Of a stretch of DNA of 64,000 nucleotides, positions 15,001-21,000 are shown piece by piece (within the stretch, counting starts at the first letter, position 1; each line of letters begins with the position of its first letter). Position numbers: made by a program. Source of the stretch: Myxococcales bacterium (GTDB taxonomy: Bacteria; Myxococcota_A; Polyangia; Polyangiales; DASUME01). The stretch is taken from assembly GCA_047601445.1 (NCBI GenBank), contig JASGJH010000001.1:6496001-6560000 (forward strand). Direction: 5' to 3'.

Positions 15001-18000
15001 GGGGCCGTACTCGATCACCTGGAAGACGCCGCCTGGCTCGAAGCCCACCTGTCGGCGCTGGGCACCCGTCACGTGGACTACGGCGTGACCCACCAGATGT
15101 ACGACTGGGTCGGTGACTCGCTCTTGATCACGCTCGCCGAAGTGGCCGGCGGAGACTGGACTCCCCATCTCCAGGAAGCCTGGAGCGAGGCCTATGGCGC
15201 CATCGTGGGCTTGATGCTGCGACCGGCAGCGGCCGCCGAGTAATGCGGTGGAGGAGCGCGCTACAACGACGGACGGGAGGAGCGCTTGTTGCCGGTGTTC
15301 ATCCCTCGCTGCATGGCGCTGGAGATCTGTTGGTAGGCACCGGTCCACGCCGCGTTGAGCGCCGGGTTCCAGTGCGCGGAATCGAACTCGGCCAGGCTCT
15401 CGAGCAGCGCCGTGCCCACGTCGTCGAAGTCGGTCGCGCGCACGCCGTAGAGGGCATGTCGACGACCCAGCTCTTCCAGCAGCGGCGTGAGGCGTTCGGG
15501 GCGGTCGAGGTGTTCGAGGGCGAGCTGCAGGGCACCCACGAGCTTGAGCTGTTGTTCTCCCAGGTCGGCCGGGAACAGCCCACGCACGTCGGGACGGGCC
15601 TCGAAGAGGCGCGCGTAGAAGCGGGCCGTCAGTTCCACCGCGCGGGATTCGATGCGGGCGAACGACGCCACCACGAGCTTTTGGCCGCCATCAGGGGCGC
15701 TGGACGGTGCGCGCTGCACCAGCCGCAGCAGCCGCTCGAGGTCCTCCAGGGCGCCGCACAGCTCGATCGCGGTGGGAAAGCGCAAGCTGGGATCGCGCTT
15801 GAGGGAGCGGTCGACGATCTCCGCGAGCATCGCCGGCACCTCCGGGACCAGGCTCGCCAGCGGAGCGGGATCGCGAAACGCGGGATCACGCAGGCCTTCT
15901 CCCGGCCCGATGGTCCCGCGCGGGGGCGAGCCGGTGCACAGCTCGTGCAGCACGAGGCCGAGGCTGTAGACGTCGGAGCGCGCGTCGCCGAGGCCGAGCC
16001 AGACTTCGGGCGCCACGTAGAGCGGCGTGCCGAGGATCATGCCGGGTGCGGTGAGTCCCTCGGCCGCTCCCAAACTCCATTGCTCGTGGGCGCCAAGCTC
16101 TCCGGTTTGCTTCCAGGAATCGGAGATCGGCTGACTGTCCGACGGTTTCAGCGCGCTGTCGGAGTCGGCCGCGCGGGCGGCGGCGCCGAGTGGCAGGGTC
16201 GCGGCAGCGTTGCCTTCGTGCCAGGGCGTGACCGGTTGCCACGAGACCCGCGAGTTAGGGCCGAGCGAGAACTTGGCCAGACCGAAGTCGAGCAGCTTCA
16301 CCACACCGCTGGCATCGACCATGGCATTGGCGGGCTTGATGTCGCGGTGGACCGTGCCCGAGCGATGGACCGCCGAGAGGCCACGCGCCAATCCGAGGGC
16401 GAGATCGAAGACGCGGCGCCAGTGGACCGGTCGCGGGATTTGCTCGAGGCTCTCCCCCTCCACGAACTCGTAGGCGATGTAGGGGCGACCCAGCACGTCA
16501 CCGATGCGATAGATGGCGACCACATTGGGATGCTGCAGGCGCGCGATGGCCTGGGCCTCGACCAGAAAGCGACCGCGCAGGGCCAGGTCCGGCTTACCGG
16601 CGATGAACTTGAGCGCCACGCGCCGGTCGAGCAGCGTGTCGTGTCCGAGGTAGACGTGGCCCATGCCGCCGCGACCGAGCGGCCGGATGACCTTGAACTC
16701 ATCCACCTGTCCGGAGGGGGTCCACTCCTCTGAAGCTGTGCCGAAGCTATCCACGAGTGACGACAACCGGCCGCATCCTACTTGGATCCCAGGGCCGGGA
16801 GCAAACCGTCTGAGGTGAAAAACCCTACTTGAGTCCGGCGCGCCACAGCAGTCGGTAAAATTGTGCGCGATCCAACCCTGCAGCGCGCGCGGCGGCACTC
16901 ACGTTTCCTGCGTGTCGTGCGAGTAGGGCGGTCAGGTAGCGACGCTCGAGCTGGCTGCTCCAGCGCTCCCGGGACTCGCGGTAAGGCAGACTCGGATCGA
17001 TCAGGGCGTCGAGCGAGTCTGACGAATCTGGAGGGGTGGCGTCGAGGTTCGCGGGTACGGCCGTCTGATGCAAGATGCAGCGCTCGAGGTAGTTGCGAAG
17101 TTCGCGCACATTGCCTGGCCAGCGATGACGGGCGAGCTCGCTCAAGAACGCCGGGGAGCGCAGGAACGAAAGCTCAGCACGCTCGGGGTCGTGGCCGAGT
17201 TTGCGCAAGAGATGCGGGACCAATACCGCGAAGTCTTCGCTGCGCTCGCGCAGGGGTGGCAACCTCACCTCCAGCACCGCCAAGCGGAAGAAGAGATCGC
17301 TGCGGAAGCGGCGCGCGTTGACCTCGGCCCGGAGGTCTCGGTGAGTGGCGGCGATGACCCGCACGTCCACTTGCTGCGTGCGGTCGCTGCCCACGGGCTT
17401 GATGGTGTGTCGTTCGAGGACCCGCAGCAGCTTGGGTTGAAGCTCCAGGTCGAGCTCCCCGATCTCGTCCAGCAGCAAGGTGCCGCCGTGCGCCGCCGCG
17501 AAGGCTCCCTGGCGTGTGCCCGTGGCGCCGGTGAAAGCGCCCTTCTCGTGCCCGAATAACTCGCTCTCGAGCAACGCACCGGGGATCGCTCCGCAGTCGA
17601 CTACCACGAAGGGACCATCGCGGCGCGGGCTCTGATCGTGCAGGGCCTCCGCCACGGCTTCCTTGCCCGTGCCCGTCTCTCCCAGCACGAGCACGGTGGA
17701 TTCGCTGGCCCCCACGCGCTCGAGCAGTGCGAACACCTGCCGCATCGCGAGCGAGCTACCGACCATGTCACCGAACACGCTCTGGGTGGAGAGCGGCACC
17801 CGCAGGGAGCCCGGGTCGAGCTCCACGCGCAGGCGGGTCCGGCCCACCTCCACGACCGAGCCAGGCCGAAGCCGCGCGTGCAGCACCGAGACGCCGTCCA
17901 GGCGCGTGCCATTGCGACTCCCCAGATCGCGCACGTGGACTTCATTGCCCACCACGCTGAGCTCGCAATGAAAGCGCGACACCGTGGGGTCTTCGAGGCA

Positions 18001-21000
18001 GATGGGGGCACCCTTGGCCGACCCGATGGCGAACTGGGATGCCGGAGCGACGAAGCGCGTGCCCTTTTGGTTTCCGTCGAGCACCACGAGAGCCAGCTGG
18101 CGCACCATGGCGTGGGGACCGTCCGGCGCCTCGAGCATGAGCGTGGACAGGCCCGTAATGGCTTGCTCTGGCGCGTGGGACTCGGGCTCGTCGTCGGCGG
18201 AATTCACGGCGAACATAGTACTAGAGCGCGCGTGTCCACGCGCAAGCTGGGTTGGCAGGTGAAGGGCGAATTGCGTGCTTGCCGTGCCGAGTTGTTCTGG
18301 TTAACTCAGTTACAGAGCCCGCTGCGGCGCAGCGATCTGCCGGACCCTCGGCAGCCAAGCACTCTTTGTTTTGCGCGGCGCGCTCGGGGCGCCCAGCACT
18401 CGTGTCGCGCTCGGAGCGCCCGGCACTCGTCTCTTCGCGTAGTGCGCTCGATATTTCTGCTCGCGCAGTACGCTCGATATTTCTGCTCGCGCAGTACGCT
18501 CGATATTTCTGCTCGCGCAATGCGCTCGACCGCGCCGCGCGCCTTCCCTGCCGCCTCTCGCCTTTCAGCCAAATCGACAGGAGAATCCATGCGCTCGAAG
18601 CCTTCCGCGGCCCTGTCCGCGGCGTTGGTCACGTTGTCTTTCGTCTCGCAGGCTTGTTTGCCGGCGCCCGAGCCTGCGGCCTACGAGGAGTGCGTCAAAG
18701 ATCAGCTCCACAAAGGTATCCCCTTGCTCGAAGCCCAACATTTTTGCCGAGCGCACGAGCCGCCTCCGCGGCCTGACCCCTCGAACTGCTTCACGGGCGA
18801 CGCGGTCATCGACGACGCCAGCGACGTGGCCACGTTCGCACCGTTCTCCGAAATCCATGGCGCGCTGCGTGTGTTGTCCGGTGCTCCCAACGTGGTGTCG
18901 TTGCCGAATCTCACGCGTGTGACCGGAGACGTGGAGCTCGTGTACTCCAGCTACCGCCCGGAACCGCCGCCGATGTCGGCTTCCTATCCCGCCATGCGCT
19001 GCGGAGCGATCCGCCAGGTCACGGCCGACGTGCGGGTCTTCCAGCTTCCTCAGCTAACCACCATCGGTGGCGATCTCACGATGGAGCAGGAGAACAGCTT
19101 CTCGGGCATCTCCACGCAACCCATCGAGCTGGGCATGGACCAACTGACCTCACTCGGGGGCAGCCTCAGCATCTCCATCGGACAGTTCGGCGGATCTCCC
19201 TGTGGTCTCACCGGCCTGGGGCAGATCCCCGCAGACCTGACGGTGCGCTTTCTGACTTCGGGCGAGGTCGATGGCAGCATCAGTGGTCTGCTCACCACCC
19301 TCACGCAGGTGGGTGGAACCTTCACCTTCGAGCGATCGCACAACTCCTTTGGCGTGCCGCTCCCTTTGCTCGCTCGGGTAGGTGCGCTGCGTATCCTGAA
19401 GGACGATCCATCCCTCAGCGGCTTTCACTTCCCGAGTCTCACCGATGTCGCCGGATTGGCTGAGCTGTCGGGCACGGGGCCGCTCAGCAACCTCACGGCC
19501 CTCACGCGCGTGGGCTCCCTGTTGGTGCATGACAGTGGCTATCTCTCGCTCGAGGACGTCGGAGGAGCGAGCCTCGAACTCGGCGGCCTCGAGCTGCGGG
19601 ACAACCCCGCGCTGGCTGCCCTCACCACGCCCGCCGGCACGAGCAAGGTCACGCTCGCGGTAAGCGCGCCGCTCACCATCGTGGACAACCCGCTCTTGAG
19701 CGCCGCCGCCATCTGCGCCTTCGTGGACTACGAAGAGGGCCAGAGCTGGAGTGGACCGAGCGACCTCGGCGGCACCGTGTGCCCCTGACGGGCGGGGAGG
19801 GCGCGTACCCTCCCCGTTCATTCCATCGGCCGCAGCGGCGTGTCACCGACCGGTGCGTTCTGGGGCACCGGCCCGAGACCCTGGGTCTTGATGCTGGCCT
19901 TGCCCGCTGGCATGGCCTCACGCTGGATCTGCACCTTCTTGTCGCCCTTTTGGACCTTCTCCGCCACGAGCAAGTAGCTGTTGTTGACCTGGATCTTTTG
20001 CCCGTCGACATTGAGGTGGTCGCCCTCGTCGACATCGAAGGCCTTGAGCTGATCGACCGGTCCCAGGTCCACCAGCATGCGCGAGCCGTCGACGTCGATC
20101 ACCGCGAGCTCGTGATCGATGTGTGTCTCCTTGGCGTTCATCTTTTCCTTGTCCACGACCTTGCCGGAGATGTGCTGCCTCTGCGGCTGCTTGGTGGCGC
20201 CCAGTGACGCTGCCTTCACCTGCGCGTTGGCGGGTGCGGGACCGGTGGCCTTGGCCCCCACCTTCACGGTCGCCGGCACGAAGCGCTGCGTACCTTCCAC
20301 GCTGCGCATTTCGCCCATCACTGTGGCAGGTGTGCCCTCCTCAACTTTGGTCGTCTCGCTGGGACCGAGATCCGCGAGCACCACTTGGCCCTGATCCGTT
20401 TCGATCAAGACCACCTTGTTCTCCTTGTCCTTGTTGCGTACTTCCGCTTCCCACACGTCGGAGACGCGGCCGCGCACTTCGATGGAGACCTTGGTCAGCG
20501 CGGGTGGCGGAGCGACCTTCGAGGTGGCGCCCGGCACCGCCGGCGTGCTCGGACTCGGTGTGGCGGGTTGCGTGGGCGCGGTCGGTTGGGGGCTGGGATT
20601 CATCGTGTCTTGCGCCAGCCCGTTCGCCGATACGCCTGCCGTGAGCCCGGCAATCATCAGCGTTCCAGTAAGAAGCTTTCTCATGGTGTCCTCCTGGCCC
20701 GCGCGTTCCGGACAGCGAGCCCGCAATGCAACGCCCACACGAGGCTGCATCCTACGTGCCAAACGGGGAGCACTGGTCTTCGAGCAGCGTAGGTTGGAAA
20801 GGCGCCAGCTTCAGCGTAACGTCGCTGCCAAGCGCTTCCGGAATGCCCCCATGTCGAGGACTCCATGAACCAGCCAGCTGCTCCAGCTCAACCCGCTCCA
20901 AGCCCTCTCGCTGTGCCCGCGCCGTGGGATCTGGTGGCGGAGGGATACTCCGCCGAGGTCGACTTGATCATGCGACCGGTCTCCCTCGAGGCGCTGCGCC

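What a model noticed while it worked through the whole genome (the two positions that open the first line are those of the whole stretch)
15261..18216. A Hanks-type Ser/Thr kinase with a C-terminal haem-globin domain, in an operon with an FHA-sigma54 activator
g05376 (501 aa) joins a eukaryote-like Ser/Thr protein kinase domain (N-terminal ~280 aa) to a classical 3-on-3 globin (res. ~360-490) that keeps the proximal histidine (LGRRH). It lies 58 nt downstream of, and on the same strand as, g05377, a sigma54 enhancer-binding protein whose receiver is replaced by an FHA (phospho-threonine-binding) domain; a free single-domain globin (g05375) sits next door on the other strand. The layout predicts a three-step gas (O2/NO/CO) signalling chain new for bacteria: haem globin -> Ser/Thr kinase -> FHA-EBP -> sigma54 promoters. 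Globin-coupled sensors known so far drive chemotaxis receptors, diguanylate cyclases, histidine kinases or anti-sigma antagonists, [...]
Evidence so far: Pfam Pkinase + PK_Tyr_Ser-Thr + Globin (PF00042) on one ORF. PDB sequence search with the last 179 residues: 56 globins at E<=0.001, best the Methylacidiphilum 'hemoglobin-like flavoprotein' (3s1i, E 1.5e-17, res. 40-160 vs 7-127) and the globin of a globin-Roadblock fusion (3wfw, E 1e-15), then neuroglobins and flavohaemoglobins; the alignment pairs the query's LGRRH with the template's LGRRH. Database search with res. 300-501: 10 proteins at E<=1e-5, of which 5 besides this one carry kinase plus globin (42-63% identical; one named, Polyangiales MAG). 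Kinase motifs GRGGMG (31), HRDIKPAN (140), DFG (160), APE (252). g05377: Yop-YscD_cpl/FHA + Sigma54_activat + HTH.
(Added by a program. Inside this text positions count along the whole contig: contig position 6,496,001 is position 1 of the stretch shown here. "Call 12" and the like, gene names such as g00115 and contig names such as C1 are that model's own, and its searches are not shown. The text may have been shortened before it was handed on; [...] marks where a part breaks off. The agent that wrote the report below was given it as the finding of a first reader that could run no searches.)

Follow-up and report, generated by a model that had tools for sequence, protein, structure and literature searches.

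The report
Haem-globin Ser/Thr kinase with FHA activator
A large myxobacterium-like genome encodes a protein kinase fused to a haemoglobin-like domain, next to a phospho-threonine-reading gene activator and a second globin gene, which together look like an undescribed way for bacteria to turn a gas or redox signal into gene expression.

Summary
Window 15261-16766(-) encodes a 501-aa Hanks Ser/Thr kinase fused to a C-terminal flavohaemoglobin-lineage globin. An FHA-sigma54 activator (16825-18216, -) ends 58 nt upstream on the same strand. A free globin (14830-15243, +) converges on the kinase gene, 17 nt from its stop.

The family is not tiny: 44 of 45 inspected 50%-identity cluster representatives carry kinase plus globin, mostly with a third alpha/beta-hydrolase-like domain. 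I found it in 23 of 401 genomes of the order, spanning 15 genera. Kinase catalytic residues and the proximal His are invariant in 50 members; TyrB10, GlnE7 and PheCD1 are kept in at least 90%.

The activator link is not confined to this genome. An FHA-type enhancer-binding-protein gene lies within 4 kb in 9 of 23 loci (8 of 15 genera), against 11 of 150 kinases genome-wide. In relatives the neighbouring free globin carries a sigma54-type -24/-12 promoter.

Best reading: a haem-regulated kinase signalling through pThr/FHA to sigma54 transcription, with the free globin a likely target. Haem binding, ligand and phosphotransfer are untested. No paper describing it was found.

The parts
15261..16766 (-). 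Kinase-globin gene (501 aa, TTG start): Hanks Ser/Thr kinase plus C-terminal globin
   Evidence: Translation; Pfam Pkinase 4.7e-33 and Globin 4.9e-16; AF2 model mean pLDDT 81.7
15777..16694 (-). Kinase domain (about residues 25-330), PknB-like
   Evidence: K53, E70, H140/D142/K144/N147, DFG160-162, T247, P253-E254 and R329 are invariant in 50 relatives. Foldseek top hit is the M. tuberculosis PknB kinase domain, E 1.4e-17, TMt 0.85
16059..16277 (-). Insert of about 73 residues in the activation segment (residues 164-236), predicted disordered and variable in relatives
   Evidence: pLDDT below 50 for residues 164-236; gapped and variable in alignment A1
15279..15695 (-). Globin domain (about residues 358-496), flavohaemoglobin/single-domain lineage
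   Evidence: Pfam PF00042; NCBIfam flavohaemoprotein globin part 1.3e-16; PDB 3s1i 1.5e-17. H437 is invariant; Y384, F398 and Q405 are kept in at least 90%. Helical 360-496 at pLDDT above 90
16825..18216 (-). FHA-sigma54 enhancer-binding protein (463 aa), 58 nt upstream of the kinase-globin on the same strand
   Evidence: Walker [15 protein letters not shown] and Walker B DEIGEL are present
17824..18084 (-). FHA domain of the EBP (residues 45-131)
   Evidence: Pfam Yop-YscD_cpl 7.1e-16 and FHA 1.5e-14. Profile best PDB match is GarA, 1.1e-12. SRFH and SRNGT are kept, but Gly-Ser replaces Gly-Arg
17266..17766 (-). Sigma54-interaction AAA+ domain (residues 151-317)
   Evidence: Pfam Sigma54_activat 6.8e-67
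16852..16953 (-). Fis-type HTH (residues 422-455)
   Evidence: Pfam HTH_8 5.3e-06
14830..15243 (+). Free single-domain globin (137 aa), convergent with the kinase-globin; candidate regulated target
   Evidence: Pfam Globin 2.1e-17. Orthologues of 55-65% identity lie next to kinase-globin genes in 5 other loci and form a clade with support 100, sister to the fused globins
14764..14779 (+). Weak sigma54-type -24/-12 candidate (CGGTCCGAAGCTTGCT), 66 nt before the free-globin ATG
   Evidence: Score 11.5 of 14.5. Background rate for a score this high is 6.7e-4 per position. Orthologous genes carry better sites at -29 to -51
14026..14642 (+). c-type cytochrome gene upstream of the free globin. The signal-peptide-like N-terminus and the CHDCH motif were read by eye
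   Evidence: Pfam Cytochrom_C 9.8e-07 on the enclosing ORF; sequence read
13044..13967 (-). LysR-type regulator, divergent from the cytochrome c / globin genes
   Evidence: Pfam HTH_1 and LysR_substrate

Best explanation
P0001 is a cytoplasmic, haem-binding, globin-regulated Hanks-type Ser/Thr kinase. It belongs to a family spread through one myxobacterial order.

Proposed mechanism:
1. The ligation or redox state of the haem changes the globin domain. O2, NO or CO is the likely ligand, because the distal pocket is TyrB10/GlnE7 as in flavohaemoglobins. The change alters kinase autophosphorylation, probably on the conserved activation-loop Thr239.
2. The phospho-kinase is read by, and/or phosphorylates, the FHA domain protein encoded just upstream. 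That protein has a Thr-containing N-terminal tail plus FHA, a layout like GarA.
3. This switches the protein's sigma54 AAA+ activator function.
4. The likely outputs are sigma54 promoters nearby. The convergent free-globin gene is the best candidate from comparison with relatives. The secreted-protein gene at 19818-20684 has the best -24/-12 site in the window.

Shown: domain make-up, residue conservation, recurrent synteny, promoter-like motifs. Inferred: haem binding, the ligand, direction of signal flow, phosphotransfer, co-transcription and targets.
For: 1. One ORF carries Pkinase plus Globin with intact motifs. Residues invariant in 50 members: K53, E70, HRDxKxxN, DFG, T247, APE, R329 and proximal H437. 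Y384 (B10), F398 (CD1) and Q405 (E7) are kept in at least 90%.
2. Both domains fold confidently; only the N-terminus and the activation-loop insert are disordered. The kinase is PknB-like.
3. The kinase has no other sensor domain and no Pfam membrane domain.
4. An FHA-type EBP gene lies within 4 kb in 9 of 23 kinase-globin loci, 8 of 15 genera, in co-directional, convergent and divergent arrangements. The base rate in G000 is 11 of 150 kinases within 4 kb, 6.1 expected at random.
5. Five of these EBPs matched only the AAA+ part at first, but their N-terminal domain folds as FHA: pLDDT 82.3, 14 Foldseek hits at E<=0.001, and the 14 listed at E<=0.001 carry FHA-protein titles, GarA first.
6. The EBP here has Walker A/B and GAFTGA, and the genome has rpoN.
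7. Free-globin orthologues in 5 other loci carry GG-N10-GC promoters 29-51 nt before the start, scoring 11.5-13.5 of 14.5. Background is 3.4e-5 per position for >=13 and 2.4e-4 for >=12. Repeated GTGCGCGCAC palindromes lie upstream of them.
8. The FHA-EBP profile aligns best to GarA, including its N-terminal Thr tail.
Against: - No experiment of any kind bears on this.
- 14 of 23 loci have no EBP within 4 kb. Some sit on short contigs, but five complete-looking loci of one genus (L132-L136) and L122, L123, L131 and L140 have none within about 8 kb.
- In L125 the FHA-EBP sits directly beside a different kinase. Kinase-EBP pairs are also generally somewhat enriched in this genome, so adjacency alone is not specific.
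- The window's FHA has Gly-Ser where the phosphate-binding Gly-Arg usually stands.
- The window's free-globin promoter is a weak match, and the GTGCGCGCAC palindromes are absent there.
- The globin is of the enzymatic (flavohaemoglobin) lineage, not the sensor lineage.
- None of 9 same-genus genomes showed the fusion with this query; they are 72-99% complete.
Confidence: 0.55

Rival explanations
1. The protein is a globin-regulated kinase, but the adjacent FHA-EBP is not its partner. Its substrates lie elsewhere, and the adjacency reflects the general habit of these genomes to place Hanks kinases near FHA-EBPs.
For: G000 has 150 or more kinase domains and 50 EBPs; 11 of 150 kinases have an EBP within 4 kb. 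The L125 FHA-EBP pairs with another kinase. G000's own orthologue of the second EBP type sits beside a globin-less kinase 2.5 Mb away. 14 of 23 loci lack a nearby EBP.
Against: 9 of 23 loci (39%) against about 7% is a roughly five-fold excess. It is spread over 8 genera and several gene orientations. Here the two genes are 58 nt apart on one strand.
Confidence: 0.2
2. The globin is not the input. It acts as an enzyme or ligand buffer (NO dioxygenase-like, O2 binding), or as a haem or redox reporter. The kinase either regulates it or merely uses it as a dimerisation module, and the free globin next door does the same chemistry.
For: The globin belongs to the flavohaemoglobin/single-domain lineage with TyrB10/GlnE7. 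It is C-terminal or central, unlike classical sensors with an N-terminal globin. Most relatives carry a further alpha/beta-hydrolase-like domain of unknown role.
Against: There is no reductase domain on the protein. In the two-domain forms the globin is the only non-kinase domain. The association with transcription activators and sigma54-type promoters points to signalling.
Confidence: 0.18
3. The fusion is a recent, possibly non-functional domain shuffle peculiar to this genome.
For: It was not found in 9 same-genus genomes. The closest relatives are only 58-63% identical.
Against: 44 of 45 inspected cluster representatives share the architecture. It occurs in 23 of 401 genomes of the order, in 6 families. 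All 66 fused globins fall on one side of a branch, SH-aLRT 86. Catalytic residues are invariant and the reading frame is intact with coding-type GC3.
Confidence: 0.02

Closest known systems
Globin-coupled sensors (HemAT-type chemoreceptors, diguanylate cyclases, the globin-coupled histidine kinase of Anaeromyxobacter; the named examples are recalled, the list of output types is from the review passage)
   Same: A haem globin is fused to a signalling output domain. The presumed logic is that ligand state of the haem controls a catalytic output, here kinase autophosphorylation.
   Different: The globin here is Pfam PF00042 of the flavohaemoglobin lineage, not the sensor (protoglobin-type) lineage. 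It lies C-terminal to the output, not N-terminal. The output is a Hanks Ser/Thr kinase, not a histidine kinase, cyclase or MCP.
Hanks kinase to FHA-protein signalling: M. tuberculosis PknB/PknG-GarA (PDB titles; mechanism recalled); Myxococcus xanthus FHA-domain enhancer-binding proteins (Jelsbak, Givskov and Kaiser 2005, seen only as a reference entry)
   Same: A PknB-like kinase sits next to a protein with a Thr-bearing N-terminal tail plus FHA domain. The FHA replaces the receiver domain of a sigma54 activator.
   Different: The kinase carries its own haem-globin domain. No input signal is known for the Myxococcus FHA-EBPs (recalled). This FHA lacks the usual Arg.
Haem-regulated eIF2-alpha kinase HRI of eukaryotes (mentioned in the passage read)
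   Same: A Ser/Thr protein kinase whose activity depends on haem, with an insert in the kinase domain.
   Different: According to that passage HRI's haem sites are not a true globin. HRI is eukaryotic and phosphorylates a translation factor.
NorR/FhpR-type sigma54 activators that switch on flavohaemoglobin or NO-reductase genes (function recalled; NorR was the best NCBIfam name for P0002, E 6.2e-93, below its cut-off)
   Same: A sigma54 activator next to a globin gene that carries a -24/-12 promoter, a layout suited to NO or O2 stress.
   Different: NorR senses NO through its own N-terminal domain. Here that domain is an FHA, and sensing would be delegated to a separate haem kinase.
Methylacidiphilum 'hemoglobin-like flavoprotein' (3s1i/3ubc) and the globin of a globin-Roadblock/LC7 fusion (3wfw)
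   Same: These are the closest solved globins by sequence, E 1.5e-17 and 1.1e-15, with the same LGRRH proximal motif. 3wfw is also a non-sensor-lineage globin fused to a signalling-type domain.
   Different: Neither has a kinase. Identity to them is modest, and their partners and functions differ.

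Membership tests
Hanks-type (eukaryote-like) Ser/Thr protein kinases, Pfam PF00069 | Profile match above the curated cut-off | tested here: met
   115.1 bits against cut-off 31.7
Hanks-type (eukaryote-like) Ser/Thr protein kinases, Pfam PF00069 | Catalytic motifs: Gly-rich loop, beta3 Lys, alphaC Glu, HRDxKxxN, DFG, APE | tested here: met
   GRGGMG 31-36, K53, E70, HRDIKPAN 140-147, DFG 160-162, APE 252-254; invariant in 50 relatives
Hanks-type (eukaryote-like) Ser/Thr protein kinases, Pfam PF00069 | Kinase fold | tested here: met
   AF2 model; Foldseek PknB 5u94 E 1.4e-17, TMt 0.85
Hanks-type (eukaryote-like) Ser/Thr protein kinases, Pfam PF00069 | Phosphotransfer activity | not testable with these tools
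   Needs an autophosphorylation assay
3-on-3 globins, flavohaemoglobin/single-domain lineage (Pfam PF00042) | Profile match above the cut-off | tested here: met
   59.7 bits against cut-off 22; 56 PDB globins at E<=0.001
3-on-3 globins, flavohaemoglobin/single-domain lineage (Pfam PF00042) | Proximal His F8, plus TyrB10, GlnE7 and PheCD1 of the distal pocket | tested here: met
   H437 is invariant; Y384, Q405 and F398 are kept in at least 90% of 50 members. The helix labels were assigned by me from the alignments and from recalled flavohaemoglobin numbering
3-on-3 globins, flavohaemoglobin/single-domain lineage (Pfam PF00042) | Haem binding | not testable with these tools
   Needs spectroscopy of the purified protein
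Globin-coupled sensors in the strict sense (sensor-lineage globin, N-terminal, Pfam Protoglobin PF11563) | Sensor-lineage globin | tested here: not met
   No Protoglobin hit at E<=0.01; the hits are PF00042 and the flavohaemoprotein model
Globin-coupled sensors in the strict sense (sensor-lineage globin, N-terminal, Pfam Protoglobin PF11563) | Globin N-terminal to the output domain | tested here: not met
   The globin occupies residues 358-496, after the kinase
Bacterial sigma54 enhancer-binding proteins (P0002) | Sigma54_activat AAA+ with Walker A/B and the GAFTGA loop, plus a C-terminal HTH | tested here: met
   224.8 bits; [14 protein letters not shown] and DEIGEL; HTH_8
Bacterial sigma54 enhancer-binding proteins (P0002) | Sigma54 (rpoN) present in the genome | tested here: met
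   One Sigma54_DBD hit, E 1.8e-63
FHA domains (P0002 residues 45-131) | Profile match | tested here: met
   FHA 54.6 bits against cut-off 20.7; Yop-YscD_cpl 58.7 against 33.2
FHA domains (P0002 residues 45-131) | pThr-contacting signature Gly-Arg ... Ser-Arg-x-His ... Asn-Gly (signature recalled) | tested here: inconclusive
   SRFH and SRNGT are present. Gly-Ser stands where Gly-Arg is expected. Three of four related EBPs have Gly-Arg

The most novel reading that the evidence does not exclude
An old, conserved module of this myxobacterial order in which a haemoglobin-domain Ser/Thr kinase senses O2/NO and, through an FHA-type activator, drives sigma54-dependent transcription of a dedicated free globin, and in some genomes of its own operon. 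That would be a Ser/Thr-phosphorylation counterpart of the NorR-flavohaemoglobin circuit, and the first globin-coupled sensor built on a eukaryote-like kinase and a non-sensor globin lineage. A second activator type in the module replaces GAFTGA with a conserved (N/G)YP(H/N)(A/P)G loop yet sits beside -24/-12 promoters. If these activators work with sigma54, that would be a new way of contacting it.
Probability: 0.3. Interest if true: 0.8.

Novelty: new variant of a known kind. Interest (0 to 1): 0.68.

Why it matters
Haem-based gas sensors in bacteria are known to feed histidine kinases, cyclases, chemoreceptors and partner-switching modules. A globin wired to a eukaryote-like Ser/Thr kinase would add a new output class.

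It would also give one of the many orphan myxobacterial Hanks kinases and FHA-type sigma54 activators a defined input signal, which has long been missing. The module is small and soluble: a kinase-globin, an FHA activator and a globin gene with a -24/-12 promoter. It could therefore be reconstituted in vitro.

It also shows that the flavohaemoglobin lineage of globins, usually seen as enzymes, was recruited for signalling in at least 44 sequence clusters.

Tried and rejected
- Genome-contig scan. The search for related loci on genome contigs with the family alignment chose kinase motifs as patterns. It returned 80 loci of ordinary kinases, none reaching the globin, so it was useless for context.
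- Metagenome scans. The single C-terminal query gave 600 pattern hits but no relative. The alignment of C-terminal parts gave 52 loci. By tblastn none of the 52 shows a kinase hit contiguous with the globin; they look like free or other globins. Only L175 is informative.
- Complex prediction, kinase domain plus FHA domain: verdict 'no answer', score 0.00. This is not evidence either way.
- The look-up of sequencing runs: none was listed.
- Plain sigma54 consensus scan of the whole window: 16 matches at <=2 mismatches against 29 expected, so no overall enrichment.
- The small secreted proteins behind sigma54-like promoters in the window, L137 and L126 are not homologous to each other.
- hhalign of the second EBP type's N-terminus against FHA was inconclusive, probability 26%. 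The fold search settled it.
- Papers not held: Jelsbak 2005 and two globin-sensor reviews.
- Literature searches for a kinase-globin fusion found nothing relevant. The library lacks most subscription journals, so 'not found' is not 'not in print'.
- Rejected: a haem-free globin fold like RsbR, because the proximal His and distal residues are conserved.
- Rejected: a recent shuffle.

Full report
**What is there**

The window lies at 6,496,001-6,560,000 of a single 9.5-Mb contig with about 66% G+C.

On the minus strand, 16825-18216 encodes a 463-aa protein. It has an FHA domain (Yop-YscD_cpl 7.1e-16, FHA 1.5e-14), a Sigma54_activat AAA+ domain (6.8e-67) and a Fis-type HTH.

Fifty-eight nucleotides downstream on the same strand, 15261-16766 encodes a 501-aa protein from a TTG start. 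It has Pkinase (4.7e-33) and, at residues 382-485, Globin PF00042 (4.9e-16).

On the plus strand, 14830-15243 encodes a 137-aa globin (2.1e-17) that ends 17 nt from the kinase-globin stop. Further upstream lie a c-type cytochrome gene (14026-14642) and a divergent LysR regulator.

The genome has only three PF00042 globin genes, and two are these neighbours.

**The protein**

In an alignment of 50 kinase-globin proteins the following are invariant:
- the kinase catalytic residues K53, E70, H140, D142, K144, N147, D160-F161-G162, T247, P253-E254 and R329;
- the proximal histidine H437.

Y384, F398 and Q405 are kept in at least 90%. I assign them to helix positions B10, CD1 and E7 from the alignment with solved globins and recalled flavohaemoglobin numbering.

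The AlphaFold2 model has mean pLDDT 81.7 and pTM 0.67. Both domains are mostly above 90. Residues 1-11 and a 73-residue insert in the activation segment (164-236) are disordered. The insert varies in length among relatives. The kinase part is closest to M. tuberculosis PknB (E 1.4e-17, TMt 0.85).

The globin is of the flavohaemoglobin/single-domain lineage. NCBIfam's flavohaemoprotein model matches its globin part (1.3e-16). The best solved relatives are the Methylacidiphilum globin 3s1i and the globin of a globin-Roadblock fusion, 3wfw. There is no Protoglobin hit. So it is not a member of the classical sensor-globin family, though it may work like one.

The word-indexed search gives only 10 hits. 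A full profile search of 1.84 billion cluster representatives lists many more proteins that match across both domains.

I picked 45 of the top 150: those whose match, in one or two stretches, reached the end of the profile. Of these, 44 carry Pkinase plus Globin at E<=1e-5. Their architectures:

| Architecture | Count |
|---|---|
| Two-domain forms of 429-510 aa | 12 |
| Third alpha/beta-hydrolase domain | 25 |
| Longer, with no further Pfam hit | 5 |
| Additional NB-ARC domain | 1 |
| Two cNMP-binding domains plus a class-V aminotransferase | 1 |

In a sample of 401 genomes of the same order (including the window's), 55 match at E<=1e-40. From the match table I count 23 genomes whose match covers the globin as well. 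They span 6 families and 15 genera. This is a lower bound, because only three candidates per genome were scored.

None of 9 same-genus genomes (72-99% complete) showed it. In a 401-genome sample of the phylum, only one genome outside the order reached the globin.

In a tree of globin segments, all 66 fused globins fall on one side of a branch (SH-aLRT 86). The six free neighbour globins form a clade with support 100, sister to the fused group when rooted on three other globins. This fits one old fusion rather than a recent shuffle.

**Gene neighbourhood**

I fetched up to about 8 kb on each side for 22 other loci. I searched them with the window's kinase, globin, FHA, AAA+ and free-globin segments and with Pfam.

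An EBP-type AAA+ gene lies within 4 kb of the kinase domain in 9 of 23 loci: the window, L014, L124, L126, L129, L130, L137, L139 and L141. That is 8 of 15 genera. The arrangements are co-directional, convergent and divergent.

Four of these nine are canonical FHA-Sigma54_activat-HTH_8 proteins: the window, L130, L139 and L141. L125 has one 5.7 kb away, but it sits directly beside a different kinase.

Five carry a second type: L014, L124, L126, L129 and L137. L128 has a partial one about 6 kb from the free globin. In this type Pfam sees only the AAA+, lid and HTH.
- A profile comparison of its N-terminal 165 residues with FHA was weak (probability 26%).
- An AlphaFold2 model of that domain (pLDDT 82.3, pTM 0.74) matches FHA domains almost exclusively: 14 hits at E<=0.001, GarA first, TMt up to 0.81.
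- Gly-Arg and Ser-Arg are invariant in 17 sequences.

So every activator found next to a kinase-globin has an FHA-type N-terminus.

For comparison, in the window's genome 11 of 150 Pkinase hits have one of the 50 Sigma54_activat hits within 4 kb, where 6.1 are expected at random. The excess for kinase-globin genes is about five-fold. Related genomes are not independent, and several loci end at contig borders.

**Free globin and sigma54 promoters**

Orthologues of the free globin (55-65% identical) lie beside the kinase-globin in 6 of 23 loci, 5 genera. In the five other loci the best GG-N10-GC site within 300 nt upstream lies 29-51 nt before the start codon:

| Locus | Site |
|---|---|
| L014 | TGGCACGGCGCCTGCG |
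| L124 | CGGCACGGCCGCTGCT |
| L128 | TGGATCACGCCGTGCA |
| L129 | TGGATCGCGCCCTGCA |
| L137 | CGGCACGTCGAGTGCA |

With my simple weighting these score 11.5-13.5 of 14.5. Over 870,438 positions of all loci, scores of at least 13, 12 and 11.5 occur at 3.4e-5, 2.4e-4 and 6.7e-4 per position.

Upstream of these sites stand one to three copies of the palindrome GTGCGCGCAC or close variants, an enhancer-like feature. Similar promoter-like sites precede the operon that holds the kinase-globin itself in L137, L126 and L131.

In the window the free globin has only a weak site, CGGTCCGAAGCTTGCT at 14764-14779, score 11.5, and no such palindrome. The best site in the window is TGGCACGTAGGATGCA at 20761-20746(-). 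It scores 14.0 and lies 62 nt before the ATG of a 288-aa protein with a signal-peptide-like start, which has no Pfam match. The genome has one rpoN.

**How it most likely works**

I read P0001 as a haem-regulated kinase. This rests on inference, on recalled knowledge of PknB-type kinases and GarA, and on PDB titles.
1. The state of the haem (O2, NO, CO or redox) alters the globin and thereby autophosphorylation. The likely site is the conserved Thr239 of the LTxxG...GTPxYxAPE segment.
2. The FHA-EBP docks on phospho-threonine and/or is phosphorylated in its N-terminal tail. The FHA-EBP profile aligns with GarA from the Thr-rich tail onward.
3. This switches the AAA+ activator, and sigma54 promoters fire.

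The free globin is the best candidate target by comparison with relatives. That would make the module a haemoglobin-expression circuit analogous to NorR-type control of flavohaemoglobin. That function is recalled; NorR was the top NCBIfam name for P0002, below its cut-off.

Confidence is 0.55. The main weaknesses are:
- there is no experiment;
- the window's FHA has Gly-Ser where Gly-Arg usually stands;
- 14 of 23 loci have no activator nearby;
- the globin is of an enzymatic lineage.

**Rivals**

- The kinase senses through the globin but acts on other substrates, and the adjacency is generic (0.2).
- The globin is an enzyme, buffer or dimerisation module rather than the input (0.18).
- A recent non-functional shuffle (0.02), contradicted.

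**Novelty**

Seven full-text searches found no description of a globin fused to a Ser/Thr kinase. I also read passages of a globin review, the 2006 globin census, a globin-superfamily survey and a myxobacterial aerotaxis paper. The review lists chemotaxis, kinase, diguanylate and adenylate cyclase and gene-regulatory outputs for N-terminal sensor globins.

The library lacks most subscription journals, and three relevant papers were not held. An earlier mention, for example in globin censuses, cannot be excluded. FHA-type sigma54 activators in Myxococcus are known, but I saw that paper only as a reference entry.

I rate this a new variant of a known kind: a globin-coupled sensor with a new output, reversed domain order and a different globin lineage.

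Noticed in passing
window 20746-20761 (-), gene 19818-20684 (-): The best sigma54-type site in the window (TGGCACGTAGGATGCA, one mismatch to the consensus) lies in an intergenic region, 62 nt before the ATG of a 288-aa protein with a signal-peptide-like start and no Pfam match. It is 2.5 kb from the FHA-EBP and a possible target of it.
   Followed up: partly
window 18379-18529: Two tandem arrays lie in the 373-nt region between the EBP gene and a divergent ORF: a 27-nt unit x1.9 and a 26-nt unit x3.7, 92-94% matching. They could be protein-binding sites.
   Followed up: no
window 18589-19788 (+): A 399-aa ORF divergent from the EBP gene. Read by eye it starts with a lipoprotein-like signal (…SQAC). 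No Pfam match on the enclosing ORF.
   Followed up: no
L129:11403-12827(-), L014:8286-9701(-), L124:2714-4168(-), L137:11345-12784(-), L126:10723-12540(-): A second type of activator sits next to kinase-globin and free-globin genes. It has a divergent FHA fold, an AAA+ domain whose GAFTGA loop is replaced by a conserved (N/G)YP(H/N)(A/P)G, and an HTH_8. Yet it stands beside good -24/-12 sites and GTGCGCGCAC palindromes. Whether it works with sigma54 is open.
   Followed up: partly
L144 (G000:C1:4016000-4028000), EBP at about 4444-5916(-), kinase 6084-7577(+): The window's own genome has an orthologue of that second activator type (50% identity, E 7.9e-106) 2.5 Mb away. It is divergent from a 497-aa Hanks kinase that has no globin.
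   Followed up: partly
three-domain relatives, e.g. L014:9672-12011(+), P0019-P0102: In the third (alpha/beta-hydrolase) domain, the alignment column of the nucleophile Ser is Ser in only 5 of 34 sequences and Gly in 19. The His column is kept in 29 of 32 and an Asp column in 28 of 32. The domain may be a non-catalytic, ligand-binding fold.
   Followed up: partly
L132-L136 (one genus), P0099, P0063: Other C-terminal extensions occur on the kinase-globin core. Forms of about 1400 aa carry two cNMP-binding domains plus a class-V aminotransferase. One form carries NB-ARC.
   Followed up: no
P0014, P0022, P0039, P0149: Giant proteins of 1842-2461 aa with 7-14 tandem globin domains and no kinase ranked high in the profile search.
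   Followed up: no
P0009, P0010, P0012, P0013: One- and two-globin proteins with hydrophobic, membrane-anchor-like C-termini (read by eye) are among the closest non-kinase relatives of the fused globin.
   Followed up: no
L175 (metagenome contig, 3956 nt): A second-type FHA-EBP is followed by a free globin on one strand. A further globin gene lies divergent from it. So the activator-globin pairing also occurs without a detected kinase.
   Followed up: no
window 23760-25370(-), about 29250-31010(+), about 31110-32747(+): Three more Hanks kinase genes lie within 17 kb of the kinase-globin. The genome has 150 or more kinase domains.
   Followed up: no
L122:7954-10776(+), L123:8109-10724(+): These two kinase-globin-hydrolase ORFs show a weak zf-HC2 (anti-sigma-type zinc finger) match in an N-terminal extension, which may simply be an over-long ORF call.
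   Followed up: no
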